Of a stretch of 55,074 nt of DNA, positions 10,218-16,330 are shown piece by piece. Every line of letters starts with the position of its first letter. The stretch's first letter is position 1. The DNA comes from a virus (taxonomy: Duplodnaviria; Heunggongvirae; Uroviricota; Caudoviricetes): IMG/VR virus record IMGVR_UViG_2880361019_000008; one strand, written 5' to 3'. The position numbers were made by a program, and so were the translations under genes. Below the pieces are notes generated by a model. The model was not told where the DNA came from. It made no database searches and saw only the letters and a list, made by a program, of their open reading frames with translations.

Positions 10218-10802
10218 ATGACCACTTTTACAAAAGAGCAGTTAATCAGTCATGTTAGTGAAAATGTAAAGGCGATGAAATTTGCAGTAAAACAGACAGC
10301 ATTCAAAAATTCTCTCGAGGCAATTGAGTTGGATTTAGCACTGGCCCTTGTTGCTCAGGCTTCGCTGGAAGCAGAGCCCGTGCTTTATATGAATCGATTT
10401 ACTGGAAAGACATTCTCACTGGAAGAGCAACCCGGTGCTGATAAGGAACCGGAAATATACGTGCCGCTATATGCTGCCCCGCCAGACAGCGCCGCCATGC
10501 TTCAGGCTGGAAACTTTCGGGAAAAGAAGGGTTCGTCAACCAATAATTTTCGGGAAATCTCGGAAACGTCAACCAACTATCCGGTAACTCTGGATGGTTG
10601 GATAAGCTGTAGTGAGCGAATGCCGGATGACGGTCAGCACGTAATTATTTTATGTGATGGCGCATTCGTTCTTTATGCGCAATATCGAGACGGTGAGTTT
10701 TTTGATGTAGTCCGTGATGGTGATGAATTTTTCGAAACACAGAGCCGCAATGTAACCGACTGGATGCCGCTACCAGAACCGCCGCAGGAGGTGCGCCAAT
10801 GA
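10218..10802 (+). CDS. Hypothetical phage protein with C-terminal DUF551-like region
   Basis: ATG 10218 preceded by AAGGAG; C-terminal ...DGWISCSERMPDDGQHVIILCDG...VTDWMPLPEPP. Confidence 0.5.
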   Translation: MTTFTKEQLISHVSENVKAMKFAVKQTAFKNSLEAIELDLALALVAQASLEAEPVLYMNRFTGKTFSLEEQPGADKEPEIYVPLYAAPPDSAAMLQAGNFREKKGSSTNNFREISETSTNYPVTLDGWISCSERMPDDGQHVIILCDGAFVLYAQYRDGEFFDVVRDGDEFFETQSRNVTDWMPLPEPPQEVRQ

Positions 10803-10917
10803 TCTGGCCTGAAGCCTTTGCAATTACAGGCGTTGCTATAGCTATTGATTTTTTAGTATATGTTATTTGTCGGTGGGGGTAAAAACGTTCGCCGGGATTC
10901 ACACCAAAGGAGGGAAT

Positions 10918-11022
10918 ATGTCGGATGATATTTCACTGGCAATGGAAGGTGCGCTGGCTGTTATTGCTGTTGTGGGCGTTTACTGCCTGGTTGTGTTTTT
11001 GATGGATCGACTAGGGAACTGA
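10918..11022 (+). CDS. Candidate 34-aa single-pass membrane peptide
   Basis: ATG preceded by strong SD AAGGAGGG; MSDDISLAMEGALAVIAVVGVYCLVVFLMDRLGN; no homologue recognised. Confidence 0.3.
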   Translation: MSDDISLAMEGALAVIAVVGVYCLVVFLMDRLGN

Positions 11023-11210
11023 ATTCATTACGATATGGGAATTCCCATATCGGGTAAAAACGGTTTGCGGTAAAGCGAGAGTTAAGTAGAATTGCTGCGG
11101 GTGCTTGAGGCTGTCTGCCTCGGGCATGACACCGTAAGGCAGACAGAGAAAAGCCCCAGTTAACATTACGCGTCCTGCAAGACGCCTAACATTAATCTGA
11201 GGCCAATTTC

Positions 11211-11423
11211 ATGCTAGACACATGTAGGTTAGCCTCTTACGCGCCGAAAGGCAAGGAGAAGCAGGCTATGAAGCAGCAAAAGGCGATGTTAATCGCCCTG
11301 ATCGTCATCTGTATTACCGTCATAGTGACGGCACTGGTAACGAGGAAAGACCTCTGCGAGGTACGAATCCGAACCGGCCAGACGGAGGTCGTTGTCTTCA
11401 CAGCTTACGAACCTGAGGAGTAA
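11211..11423 (+). CDS. mok: Mok-like overlapping reading frame (in-frame N-terminal extension of hok)
   Basis: 70-aa ORF sharing frame and stop with the hok-like gene, as in chromosomal mok/hok loci. Confidence 0.45.
   Translation: MLDTCRLASYAPKGKEKQAMKQQKAMLIALIVICITVIVTALVTRKDLCEVRIRTGQTEVVVFTAYEPEE
11268..11423 (+). CDS. hok: Hok/Gef-family type I toxin
   Basis: 51-aa MKQQKAMLIALIVICITVIVTALVTRKDLCEVRIRTGQTEVVVFTAYEPEE resembles Hok; SD AGGAG 9 nt upstream. Confidence 0.8.
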   Translation: MKQQKAMLIALIVICITVIVTALVTRKDLCEVRIRTGQTEVVVFTAYEPEE

Positions 11424-11509
11424 GAGACCCGGCGAGGGAGAAATCCCTCGCCACCTCTGATGAATCAGGCATCCTCAACGCACCCGCACTTAACCCGCTT
11501 CGGCGGGTT

Positions 11510-11869
11510 TTGTTTTTTCCTGGCATTCTGGTTTACAATTCGCACGCCAGCCTGAACAACTGGCACCTGCTGCGCCAGCAGAGACAACCGATGGCGCACG
11601 ATACCAAATTATACAATTCTGATGATTCTGCCGTCTTTGCCAGCAGGCGCGGACGGTGTTTTCACGCATTCAAATCTGACTGGTACCAGCATCCCCCATG
11701 CACTGAAGAACAGGCCGAATGGCTCATTCAGTGTTACCGCAGGCGCGGATGCGAGGTTAAAAAAGCCCTTAGCCTCGACTACCGTCACTGGATAATCTCC
11801 GTCAGGCTCCCTTACTCCGAACGGCCACCGCGTCCGTCCCGCACATTCCAGCAACGGATCTGGAGGTAA
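11510..11869 (+). CDS. Hypothetical protein (possible shorter start at 11591)
   Basis: ORF between hok and the ydfU-like genes; no recognised motif. Confidence 0.3.
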   Translation: MFFPGILVYNSHASLNNWHLLRQQRQPMAHDTKLYNSDDSAVFASRRGRCFHAFKSDWYQHPPCTEEQAEWLIQCYRRRGCEVKKALSLDYRHWIISVRLPYSERPPRPSRTFQQRIWR

Positions 11870-13685: not shown

Positions 13686-13715
13686 TTGACCATATACATT
13701 GTCCGGGGCTATATT
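13686..13715 (+). promoter_or_regulatory. Candidate late promoter (PR' analogue): TTGACC-N18-TATATT
   Basis: -35 and -10 hexamers immediately after Q stop. Confidence 0.35.
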
Positions 13716-13777
13716 CCTCGCGCGTCAGCAAAATCTGGCGTCGGGATTGGAACCCCGGATATTCAACCGCGACAGAC

Positions 13778-13801
13778 ACACGCCGCGAGCGTGTTTTTTA
13801 T
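13778..13801 (+). terminator. Intrinsic terminator (tR' analogue)
   Basis: Hairpin ACACGC-CGCGA-GCGTGT followed by TTTTTT. Confidence 0.55.
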
Positions 13802-13963
13802 TGTCGTAAGCACACGCACATCTGAATAATGGTGGGGCGTATGGGGGAGCTGAAAGGCTCGCCGGTTGGTTGATCCGGTAGTTCCAACCCTGTACGTCTC
13901 ACCACCCAATGATTGGAACCTGACGGTGGTGATAGTTAAATCCATCAACCAGAGGGCGTTATC

Positions 13964-16129: not shown

Positions 16130-16330
16130 TTTTTTTATTTGCTGTTTATTAAAAACACCACTGCATGGTGAATCCCCCTGTGCGGTGGGGCAATCAGCAA
16201 GAAGGAATATGGGGTAACCGCGGATTCAGGTGCTGATACTGAATTCACCGGGAGGCACCCGGCACCATGCTTTGCCACAAAAGTGTTATTTCTGTTTTTC
16301 TCAAACTATCATCGTTATCCCTTTATTTTC

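What the first reader, a model, noticed from the sequence alone, without database searches (positions are those of the whole stretch)
11031..11460. hok/mok type I toxin locus with leader hairpins; antisense sok-like RNA expected but not located
The Hok-family toxin (11268..11423) has an in-frame upstream mok-like extension from 11211, as in chromosomal hok loci. Upstream are a perfect 22-bp palindrome CGATATGGGAATTCCCATATCG (11031-11052) and a long hairpin CTGTCTGCCT-N16-AGGCAGACAG (11111-11146); downstream is a GGCGAGGGA-GAAA-TCCCTCGCC hairpin. By analogy with hok/sok, an antisense RNA should overlap the mok start (about 11170-11270, minus strand), but I could not pick out its promoter or terminator.
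Basis: partly seen in the sequence, partly recalled or inferred. Interest (0 to 1): 0.45.

Follow-up and report, generated by a model that had tools for sequence, protein, structure and literature searches.

The report
Prophage hok/mok/sok toxin-antitoxin cassette

Summary
Window ~11065-11517 is a complete hok/mok/sok type I toxin-antitoxin cassette. It is 99.6% identical to loci that RefSeq annotates as hokD in E. coli O157:H7 prophages, and about 91% identical to the experimentally characterised hokW-sokW of prophage Sp5.

All parts of the R1 hok/sok model are present. They are conserved in 62 homologues:
- hok promoter;
- ucb anti-SD, mok SD and in-frame mok, dcb, and hok;

Sok is now located on the minus strand. 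Its -35 is TTGCCT (11254-11249) and its -10 is TAACCT (11231-11226). The start is ~11219, a -30.8 kcal/mol hairpin spans 11204-11152, and a U-tail ends at ~11143-11149.

The 22-bp palindrome is not a leader hairpin. It lies upstream of the hok -35 and is absent from most homologous cassettes. The same palindrome sits inside KilA-N genes of other phages, where it stays perfect through compensatory changes. This side observation is unexplained.

The Rfam "sok" model matches the hok sense strand, not Sok.

The parts
11065..11070 (+). hok/mok mRNA promoter, -35 hexamer TTGCGG (16-nt spacer to the -10)
   Evidence: Read from the sequence. TTGCGG/TTGGCG-type hexamers sit at this position in related loci. 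The simple consensus scan did not flag it.
11087..11092 (+). hok/mok mRNA promoter, -10 hexamer TAGAAT, 6 nt before the conserved 5' end GGGUGC
   Evidence: A TAnnnT hexamer (TAGAAT, TACAAT, TACTAT, TAAAAT, TAGTAT and others) sits at the same distance from GGGTGCTTGAGG in nearly all upstream variants, including Kluyvera, Pantoea and Erwinia.
11099..11517 (+). Full-length hok mRNA (about 419 nt). The start is inferred from the -10 spacing and the start of the Rfam model. The end is inferred from the terminator.
   Evidence: Rfam model position 1 aligns to 11099. The fold is -174.3 kcal/mol with z = -7.2. Homology blocks in other phages begin at 11052-11091 and end at 11498-11540, mostly 11510-11518.
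11099..11110 (+). tac (translational activator) element GGGUGCUUGAGG. It pairs with fbi in the full-length RNA and with ucb in the truncated RNA.
   Evidence: Seen in the minimum-energy folds. It is 97.8% paired with fbi and 98.1% paired with ucb across 62 homologues.
11111..11146 (+). 5' (tac) stem-loop of the hok mRNA.
   Evidence: Inverted repeat found. Energy is -21.2 kcal/mol. Four pairs show compensatory changes, for example AU 46 / GC 8 / UA 4. It is part of the RF01794 structure.
11151..11157 (+). ucb / anti-SD box AAGCCCC. It pairs with the mok SD in the full-length fold and with tac in the truncated fold.
   Evidence: Folds. The model is described in PMC9841398. Conservation is shown, helix 1.
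11199..11203 (+). mok Shine-Dalgarno GAGGC, ending 7 nt before ATG 11211
   Evidence: Read from the sequence. It is paired to ucb in the full-length fold and to dcb in the truncated fold. About 99% of cells are paired (helix 4, first five pairs).
11211..11423 (+). mok reading frame (70 codons), in frame with hok
   Evidence: ORF list. The ATG is conserved in 61 of 62 homologues. The ORF reads in frame through hok in the E. coli prophage clade and is in another frame (55-68 aa) in seven others.
11232..11236 (+). dcb box GCCUC, which pairs with the mok SD in the truncated RNA
   Evidence: Fold of 11099-11462 and conservation.
11254..11258 (+). hok Shine-Dalgarno AGGAG, ending 9 nt before ATG 11268
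   Evidence: Read from the sequence. The block AAGGAGAAG is invariant between the window, K-12 hokC and an R1-type plasmid locus.
11268..11423 (+). hok toxin gene (51 aa). It is 49/51 identical to K-12 HokD and 45/51 identical to HokW.
   Evidence: Pfam PF01848, E 1.2e-21. Identities computed. The ORF is intact (49-51 aa) in 62 of 62 homologues.
11406..11409 (+). UACG at Tyr47 codon. This is a candidate TadA A-to-I editing site (Tyr to Cys), inferred only.
   Evidence: Read from the sequence. GCTTACGAA is nearly invariant. The preprint 10.1101/2025.08.07.668861 states that hokC, hokD and hokE mRNAs are edited at the equivalent codon. A11407 is unpaired in the full-length fold.
11431..11452 (+). 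3' stem-loop GGCGAGGGA-GAAA-UCCCUCGCC. Its inferred role is the 3'-exonuclease barrier that defines the truncated, active mRNA.
   Evidence: Found. Energy is -18.2 kcal/mol. Compensatory changes are AU 30 / GU 18 / GC 13 and GC 50 / AU 10 (helix 16). The role of the equivalent R1 stem-loop is described in PMC9841398.
11473..11485 (+). fbi (fold-back inhibition) element CCUCAA(C)GCACCC, complementary to tac
   Evidence: Inverted repeats I4 and I7. Seen in the full-length fold. It is 97.8% paired in 62 homologues against 35-41% when the partner is slid.
11492..11519 (+). Intrinsic terminator of the hok mRNA (7-bp stem, loop UUCG, T-run)
   Evidence: Terminator scan. Energy is -11.8 kcal/mol.
11249..11254 (-). 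Sok promoter -35, TTGCCT on the minus strand (17-nt spacer)
   Evidence: Minus-strand alignment of 35 distinct homologues. C and T positions are invariant or at least 90% conserved.
11226..11231 (-). Sok promoter -10, TAACCT on the minus strand
   Evidence: T1, A2 and T6 are invariant in 35 distinct homologues. Variants are TAATCT, TACTCT, TACCTT and TAGCCT. The same hexamer in hokW-sokW was mutated (primers YO-421/422) to make the 'promoter-less' sokW, which unmasks toxicity.
11143..11219 (-). Sok antisense RNA (about 71-77 nt). It has a 15-nt 5' tail, a hairpin at 11204-11152 and a tail UUUUCUCUGU. It covers the mok SD and start codon.
   Evidence: The start is 7 nt after the -10 and matches the 5' end of the annotated K-12 sokC by alignment. 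The hairpin is -30.8 kcal/mol on this strand against -17.8 on the sense strand, with z = -5.1. It is 96.4% paired with 5 compensatory pairs. The sokW northern probe YO-592 corresponds to 11190-11219.
11031..11052 (.). 22-bp perfect palindrome CGATATGGGAATTCCCATATCG. It is adjacent to the hok/sok cassette, not part of it. Its centre is about -57 from the hok start.
   Evidence: It lies upstream of the -35. It is present in 15 of 131 related loci. The same 22-mer occurs in unrelated phage contexts and inside KilA-N genes.

Best explanation
Window ~11065-11517 is a complete, apparently functional hok/mok/sok type I toxin-antitoxin cassette of the hokD/hokW type. It sits as a self-contained promoter-to-terminator unit in the early-right (nin) region of an E. 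coli O157-type lambdoid prophage.

Mechanism, by the R1 model, inferred here from sequence, folding and conservation:
1. A constitutive promoter makes a ~419-nt hok mRNA.
2. The 5' tac element of this RNA pairs with the 3' fbi element. The mok ribosome-binding site is then held by the ucb box, so the RNA is neither translated nor bound by Sok.
3. Slow 3' trimming back to the 11431-11452 hairpin removes fbi.
4. tac then pairs with ucb and the mok SD pairs with dcb. Mok becomes translatable, and hok is translated through coupling to mok.
5. As long as the short-lived ~75-nt Sok RNA is made from the opposite strand, it pairs with the mok start region and the duplex is destroyed.
6. If Sok supply stops, Hok is made and damages the inner membrane. 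Supply could stop through loss of the element, transcription block or prophage induction.

Shown here: all sequence parts, their predicted pairings and their conservation. Not shown here: transcripts, processing, toxicity and the biological role.
For: - Family hits: Rfam RF01794 scores 117.5 bits over the full model. Pfam HOK_GEF matches at 1.2e-21.
- Close relatives: the locus is 99.6% identical to loci annotated hokD in O157:H7 prophages. They lie between a DUF551 gene and DUF968/RusA/Q genes.
- Folding: the full-length fold gives tac/fbi and ucb/SD pairing. The fold without the 3' end gives tac/ucb and SD/dcb pairing. This is the switch described for R1 (PMC9841398).
- Conservation: both conformations are 94-95% paired across 62 homologues, against 33-42% for slid controls. 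34 and 23 pairs respectively change on both sides.
- Sok: the TAnnnT -10 and the TTGCCT -35 are conserved on the minus strand. The strong hairpin plus U-tail is much more stable on the minus strand. Its ends match the annotated sokC.
- Experimental support in a homologue: the sokW -10 mutation and northern probe map to the same places.
- ORFs: Hok is intact in 62 of 62 homologues and the mok ATG is kept in 61 of 62.
- Cassette limits: homology breakpoints in other phages fall at the promoter and terminator.
Against: - No transcript, processing or toxicity data exist for this copy.
- The tac/fbi, tac/ucb and SD/dcb helices are conserved by invariance, not by compensatory change, so they add no independent covariation support.
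- The consensus promoter scan flagged neither promoter. The Sok -10 TAACCT matches only 3 of 6 consensus positions.
- Chromosomal hok loci tested in the literature did not mediate post-segregational killing (summarised in 10.1101/2025.08.07.668861).
- This copy carries a Hok A42V change not seen in any fetched relative. The position is A, T or V among relatives.
Confidence: 0.93

Rival explanations
1. The locus is a decayed or silenced hok relic, like K-12 hokD which has lost its leader. It would have no working Sok and no regulated toxin expression.
For: K-12/ATCC 8739 hokD shares homology with this window only from 11254 onwards and sits directly behind relBE. The K-12 hokC locus is flanked by IS186. 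Chromosomal loci were reported unable to mediate PSK.
Against: Every regulatory element is present and matches the conserved consensus, from both promoters through to fbi and the terminator. There is no IS element or frameshift. The sequence differs from the O157 copy at only 2 of 561 positions.
Confidence: 0.04
2. The cassette is intact, but its role is not plasmid-style post-segregational stabilisation. It would instead help the prophage lyse the host on induction, as shown for hokW-sokW. Read-through from the early-right operon and loss of Sok would release Hok. Alternatively it acts as an abortive-infection defence against other phages.
For: In Sp5, mitomycin C lowers sokW and raises HokW in a RecA-dependent way, and deleting the locus halves phage release (PMC8621323). 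[quoted passage not shown] T4 protection by hok/sok is cited.
Against: Nothing in the sequence distinguishes these roles. The Sp5 effect was two-fold and was measured for a 91%-identical paralogue in a different prophage.
Confidence: 0.5
3. The 22-bp palindrome is part of the hok leader or control region. It would act as an upstream hairpin in the transcript or as an operator that controls the hok promoter.
For: It is a perfect 9-bp stem with a 4-nt loop (-12.9 kcal/mol). It is centred about 57 bp upstream of the hok start. It travels with hok cassettes in at least three different left-flank contexts. The same palindrome is under nucleotide-level selection inside KilA-N genes.
Against: It lies upstream of the -35, so the cassette's own promoter does not transcribe it. 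116 of 131 related loci lack it, and many have a different sequence directly before the promoter. One hok-adjacent copy has an uncompensated mismatch (L085). No T-run follows it on either strand.
Confidence: 0.12

Closest known systems
hokD (relF) of the E. coli K-12 Qin prophage
   Same: The Hok peptide is 49/51 identical. The 3' part of the locus is the same, with homology from window 11254 to 11518 at 97%. The prophage neighbourhood is similar, with a DUF968 gene downstream. RefSeq gives the window-type gene the same name.
   Different: K-12 hokD has lost everything upstream of the hok SD: the promoter, tac, ucb, mok start and the Sok RNA region. It is fused behind relBE. The window has the complete cassette.
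hokW-sokW of Sakai prophage 5 / Stx2 phages (Takada et al. 2021, PMC8621323)
   Same: It has the same architecture, lies in a lambdoid prophage and is about 91% identical in DNA. Hok is 45/51 identical and Mok is in frame. The Sok -10 TAACCT is identical and the -35 is equivalent. All primers and probes from the paper map to the equivalent positions.
   Different: The Hok C-terminus differs (VFVDYESEK against VFTAYEPEE). The 3' hairpin sequence and downstream flank differ, and it sits in a different prophage backbone. The function of this copy has not been tested.
hok/sok (parB) of plasmid R1
   Same: It has the same set of elements in the same order: tac, tac stem-loop, ucb, Sok target, mok, dcb, hok, 3' hairpin, fbi and terminator. 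An R1-type copy also matches RF01794 on the hok strand.
   Different: Hok is only distantly similar. The paper gives 44% identity for HokW against R1 Hok. In the R1-type sequence read here, mok is not in frame with hok. The Sok hairpin here is about 18 nt longer than in K-12 hokC, seen as a 16-nt insertion relative to the Rfam model. The genomic setting is a prophage rather than a plasmid.
hokC/mokC/sokC (gef) of E. coli K-12
   Same: Mok is in frame, and the leader is alignable (RF01794 scores 118 bits). The annotated sokC ends transfer directly to window 11219 and 11143.
   Different: It is a chromosomal, non-prophage locus with IS186 downstream. SokC is 59 nt because its hairpin is shorter.

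Membership tests
[quoted passage not shown] | About 50-aa Hok/Gef-family membrane toxin ORF | tested here: met
   Pfam PF01848 at E 1.2e-21 and 76.5 bits against a cut-off of 22. The ORF is intact in 62 of 62 homologues.
[quoted passage not shown] | Upstream overlapping mok reading frame with its own SD, through which hok is translated | tested here: met
   A 70-codon ORF starts at ATG 11211, with GAGG ending 8 nt upstream. The ATG is kept in 61 of 62 homologues although the frame relation to hok varies. Translational coupling itself cannot be tested with these tools.
[quoted passage not shown] | Cis-encoded antisense Sok RNA with its own promoter and terminator hairpin, overlapping the mok translation start | tested here: met
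   The -35 and -10 are conserved on the minus strand. The hairpin plus U-tail is at -30.8 kcal/mol. Its ends agree with the annotated sokC. Mutagenesis and the northern probe in hokW-sokW map to the same sites. Transcription in this strain was not observed.
[quoted passage not shown] | Long-range 5' tac / 3' fbi pairing that locks the full-length mRNA | tested here: met
   12 pairs join 11099-11110 to 11473-11485. They are 97.8% paired in 62 homologues against 35-41% in slid controls. The conservation is by invariance, with no compensatory changes.
[quoted passage not shown] | Alternative tac/ucb and mok-SD/dcb pairings in the 3'-truncated mRNA | tested here: met
   Fold of 11099-11462. The pairings are 98% and about 99% paired in homologues.
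[quoted passage not shown] | Stable stem-loop between the hok stop and fbi that ends the processed mRNA | tested here: met
   Hairpin 11431-11452 has compensatory changes. The processing itself cannot be tested here.
[quoted passage not shown] | Match to the curated covariance model of the locus (Rfam RF01794) | tested here: met
   117.5 bits against a gathering score of 59, covering the full model, on the + (hok sense) strand.
[quoted passage not shown] | Hok is toxic and Sok neutralises it; RNase III degrades the duplex | not testable with these tools
   This has been shown only for relatives: R1 hok/sok, and hokW-sokW (PMC8621323).

The most novel reading that the evidence does not exclude
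The 22-bp palindrome next to the cassette is a copy of a nucleic-acid element that is under selection as an inverted repeat inside KilA-N domain genes of many phages. There, amino-acid changes on the two arms compensate each other, so the DNA stays a perfect 22-28-bp palindrome around GGGAATTCCC. At -57 of the hok promoter it could act as a binding site for a dimeric phage protein, possibly a KilA-N protein. That would couple hok transcription to another phage function. Alternatively it could be the recombination joint through which this hok/sok cassette is exchanged between prophages.
Probability: 0.2. Interest if true: 0.5.

Novelty: already known. Interest (0 to 1): 0.12.

Why it matters
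For the hok/sok locus itself there is little new. hok/sok is the textbook type I toxin-antitoxin system, prophage copies are documented and enriched, and a close paralogue has been characterised.

Three practical points come out of the check:
- RefSeq annotates only the toxin at such loci. Sok, mok and the RNA elements can be placed to the nucleotide by homology.
- The Rfam family called 'sok' models the hok sense-strand leader. Automated annotation with it would put the antitoxin on the wrong strand and give it the wrong length.
- This window shows the complete form of the hokD-type locus, which is truncated in K-12.

The palindrome shared with KilA-N genes is the only part that might lead somewhere new.

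Tried and rejected
- The consensus promoter/terminator scan found the hok terminator but neither promoter nor the Sok terminator. The Sok -10 matches 3 of 6 consensus positions. I therefore relied on conservation and on homology to annotated and tested loci.
- I first read the Rfam 'sok' hit on the + strand as conflicting with an antisense Sok. The K-12 hokC/sokC control resolved this: the model hits the hok strand and sokC is annotated opposite.
- I tested whether the palindrome region is a decayed KilA-N gene by running tblastn with a KilA-N protein against the window and ten palindrome-bearing loci. No significant similarity was found beyond the palindrome and about 4 flanking codons. A relic remains possible but unproven.
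- I looked for further copies or near-copies of the palindrome in the window, allowing 3 mismatches, and found none.
- Literature searches for 'KilA-N' plus 'palindrome' and for the core sequence found nothing relevant.
- I considered the minus-strand ORFs 11237-11401 (54 aa) and 11011-11166 (51 aa). I dismissed them as by-products of the antisense of hok and of the leader, because there is no support for them.
- The intrinsic-terminator idea for the palindrome was rejected, because no T-run follows it on either strand.

Full report
**The observation**

- The 51-aa Hok ORF is at 11268-11423. The in-frame 70-codon ORF from ATG 11211 matches Pfam HOK_GEF at E 1.2e-21.
- The perfect 22-bp palindrome is at 11031-11052. 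It is the only copy in the window, and no match appeared in 100 shuffles.
- The hairpin at 11111-11146 is part of a longer inverted repeat, 11100-11120 / 11137-11157.
- The hairpin GGCGAGGGA-GAAA-TCCCTCGCC is at 11431-11452.

**Identity of the locus**
- Rfam RF01794 ('sok antitoxin') matches 11099-11273 on the + strand with 117.5 bits, against a gathering score of 59, over the whole model.
- The 561 bases around the finding occur in 4733 of 5426 complete E. coli genomes. They are 99.6% identical in many O157:H7 chromosomes. There RefSeq annotates only the toxin, as hokD.
- In those genomes the gene sits in a lambdoid prophage. Upstream are replication-type genes, a DUF551 gene and a small hypothetical ORF. 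Downstream are DUF968, RusA and the Q antiterminator.
- Phage records call the same gene MokW, gef, HokD or host killer protein.
- The window copy differs from the O157 copy at two positions. One is 11129, in a loop. The other is 11392, which changes Hok Ala42 to Val.

**Strand of the Rfam hit**

The Rfam model ends at the hok AUG, so it represents the hok mRNA leader and not the antisense RNA. I checked this with two controls.
- In K-12, RF01794 hits the hokC strand (L132 502-654, minus), while RefSeq annotates sokC on the opposite strand at 553-611.
- An R1-type plasmid locus behaves the same way.

The hit therefore confirms the family, but it does not by itself place Sok.

**The hok mRNA**
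- A TAnnnT hexamer (TAGAAT here, 11087-11092) lies 6 nt before the conserved GGGTGCTTGAGG. This holds in nearly all upstream variants, including those from Kluyvera, Pantoea and Erwinia. TTGCGG at 11065-11070 serves as the -35.
- An intrinsic terminator follows at 11492-11509 with a T-run.
- Folding 11099-11517 gives -174.3 kcal/mol (z = -7.2). The 5' end (11099-11110, tac) pairs with 11473-11485 (fbi). The AAGCCCC box (ucb, 11151-11157) pairs with the mok Shine-Dalgarno GAGGC (11199-11203).
- Folding the RNA without its 3' end (11099-11462) gives the alternative structure. Here tac pairs with ucb, and the mok SD pairs with GCCUC at 11232-11236 (dcb).
- This is exactly the full-length/truncated switch described for R1 hok. 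It includes a last stem-loop that protects the truncated RNA from 3' exonucleases (PMC9841398). The 11431-11452 hairpin occupies that position.

**Conservation**

I fetched 130 related loci from genomes and viral contigs. I aligned 62 distinct versions of the cassette.
- The full-length structure is 94.0% paired, against 35-41% when partners are slid. 34 pairs change on both sides, against 14.4 in shuffles.
- The truncated structure is 95.1% paired, with 23 such pairs.
The 5' hairpin has AU 46 / GC 8 / UA 4 at one pair. The 3' hairpin has AU 30 / GU 18 / GC 13 and GC 50 / AU 10.
- The tac/fbi, tac/ucb and SD/dcb helices are conserved by near-invariance (98%). That is expected for a segment that must fit two partners, but it adds no independent covariation evidence.
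- Hok is intact (49-51 aa) in all 62 homologues. The mok ATG is kept in 61. Mok reads in frame into Hok in the E. coli prophage clade. In seven other homologues it is in another frame (55-68 aa). This fits the view that mok translation matters rather than the Mok protein.
- Homology with other phages starts between 11052 and 11091. It ends between 11498 and 11540, mostly at 11510-11518. The cassette is therefore a promoter-to-terminator unit exchanged between prophage backbones.

**Locating Sok**
- Promoter: the minus strand reads CTCC-TTGCCT-(17 nt)-TAACCT. The -35 is at 11254-11249 and the -10 at 11231-11226. In 35 distinct homologues T1, A2 and T6 of the -10 are invariant while the middle varies (TAATCT, TACTCT, TACCTT, TAGCCT).
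- Start: seven nucleotides downstream of the -10 is 11219. Aligning the K-12 locus places the annotated 5' end of sokC (opposite mokC nucleotide 9) at window 11219. It places the sokC 3' end at 11143.
- Hairpin: the RNA has a 15-nt 5' tail, then a 23-bp hairpin (11204-11152), then UUUUCUCUGU. The fold has z = -5.1.
- Strand preference: the hairpin is worth -30.8 kcal/mol on the minus strand and only -17.8 on the sense strand. Five G-U pairs on the minus strand become A-C mismatches on the sense strand.
- Conservation: the hairpin is 96.4% paired in homologues, with five pairs changed on both sides.
- Target: Sok thus covers the mok SD and start codon.
- Experimental anchor: every primer of the hokW-sokW paper maps exactly onto Stx2 phage I. 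The primers used to make the promoter-less sokW replace TAGGTTA, the complement of this same -10. That mutation unmasks toxicity, which sokW in trans partly rescues. The sokW northern probe corresponds to window 11190-11219.
- Why the scan missed it: the simple promoter scan did not flag this promoter, because TAACCT matches only 3 of 6 consensus positions.

**Relation to known loci**
- Hok here is 49/51 identical to K-12 HokD and 45/51 identical to HokW.
- K-12-type hokD shares homology with the window only from 11254 onwards and lies directly behind relBE. The window therefore shows the complete form of a locus that is truncated in K-12.
- Alignment with K-12 hokC and an R1-type locus shows the same elements in the same order.
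- hok genes are known to be enriched in prophages (10.1101/2025.08.07.668861).
- For hokW-sokW a role in speeding lysis and phage release after induction has been reported (PMC8621323).
- Which role this copy plays cannot be decided from sequence. The candidates are stabilisation, help with lysis and phage exclusion.

**The 22-bp palindrome**

It lies upstream of the hok -35, centred about 57 bp before the start. It is followed by no T-run and is present in only 15 of the 131 related loci. Most cassettes have other sequence directly before the promoter. It is therefore not a hok leader hairpin.

Following it up gave an unexpected result.
- The exact 22-mer occurs in at least 120 viral contigs.
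- Of the 80 loci examined, 57 have it just upstream of a hok cassette, in at least three different left-flank contexts. The other 23 are in unrelated contexts.
- Several of those lie inside KilA-N domain genes (Pfam PF04383). There the palindrome encodes D-M-G-I-P-I-S.
- In diverged KilA-N homologues the peptide changes but the DNA stays a perfect palindrome around GGGAATTCCC:
  - GAGGTCTATGGGAATTCCCATAGACCTC (28 bp, S-M-G-I-P-I-D)
  - GGTCCATGGGAATTCCCATGGACC (24 bp)
  - CCGATGCGGGAATTCCCGCATCGG (24 bp, D-A-G-I-P-A-S)
  - TCGAAACGGGAATTCCCGTTTCGA (24 bp, E-T-G-I-P-V-S)
- The longest palindrome arm at any other centre in these genes is 4-6.
- The inverted repeat is therefore itself under selection in KilA-N genes. 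It could be a hairpin or cruciform, or a binding site for a dimeric protein that co-evolves with it.
- In the window the copy is non-coding. About 14 nt beyond it on the minus strand still resemble the KilA-N gene, but tblastn finds no significant remnant.
- Its meaning next to hok is unknown. It could be a relic, a recombination joint or an operator. I found no paper on it.

**Verdict**

The finding is a correct identification of a well-known system. The missing Sok gene is now placed, and the fbi element and terminator are added. The palindrome is removed from the cassette. Novelty is nil for the locus itself. The palindrome is recorded as a side observation.

Noticed in passing
window 11031-11052; L329, L399, L398, L400, L476, L197 (KilA-N genes, at the G-I-P codons): The 22-bp palindrome next to hok is, in other phages, part of the coding sequence of KilA-N domain proteins. 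In diverged homologues the amino acids on both arms change in a mutually compensating way, so a perfect 22-28-bp palindrome around GGGAATTCCC is kept. The longest palindrome arm elsewhere in these genes is 4-6. The exact 22-mer also occurs in unrelated, partly high-GC, phage contexts. No literature was found.
   Followed up: partly
window 11099-11273 (+); L132 502-654 (-); L253 182-353 (+): Rfam RF01794, named 'sok antitoxin', matches the hok mRNA sense strand (the leader up to the hok AUG). It does not match the antisense RNA. In K-12 the hit is opposite to the annotated sokC. Annotation pipelines that use it would put Sok on the wrong strand and make it about 100 nt too long.
   Followed up: yes
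window 4534-4585 (-), 13709-13909 (+), 16137-16303 (+): Other prophage small RNAs score above the Rfam gathering thresholds: DicF; c4-a1b1, isrK and C4 antisense RNA in a cluster; and STnc100. They are consistent with a lambdoid or O157-type prophage.
   Followed up: no
window 10799-10882 and 10909-11022 (+): Two very small hydrophobic ORFs (27 and 37 aa) lie just upstream of the cassette and have no Pfam match. Homologues of one or the other end directly before the hok promoter in many other prophages. Their C-termini read ...LMDRLSD* or ...ICRWG*. RefSeq annotates a 34-aa version of the second as hypothetical.
   Followed up: partly
window 11392 and 11129: These are the only two differences from the O157:H7 reference copy over 561 bases. 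11392 T (reference C) changes Hok Ala42 to Val, and none of the fetched loci encodes this exact Hok. 11129 A (reference C) lies in the loop of the 5' hairpin.
   Followed up: yes
window 11406-11409: The Tyr47 codon UAC is followed by G (UACG) in a nearly invariant GCTTACGAA. A preprint says hokC, hokD and hokE mRNAs are A-to-I edited by TadA at the equivalent codon, giving the second cysteine of a disulfide. A11407 is unpaired in the predicted full-length fold.
   Followed up: partly
L011, L015-L017, L028, L030, L038 compared with window 11211-11267: The frame of mok relative to hok is not conserved. It is in frame (70 aa, ending with Hok) in the E. coli prophage clade. It is in another frame (55-68 aa) in seven other homologues. 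It is short or lost in three (L018, L047, L048), while the mok ATG and SD stay in place in all but L018.
   Followed up: yes
L006, L010, L031, L041, L043: Near-identical hok cassettes turn up on short contigs of assemblies labelled Veillonella parvula MAG, Xanthomonas pisi, Acinetobacter idrijaensis, a 'Candidatus Scatousia' MAG and a Haemophilus MAG. These are most likely E. coli or phage contamination or mis-binning, not real host range.
   Followed up: no
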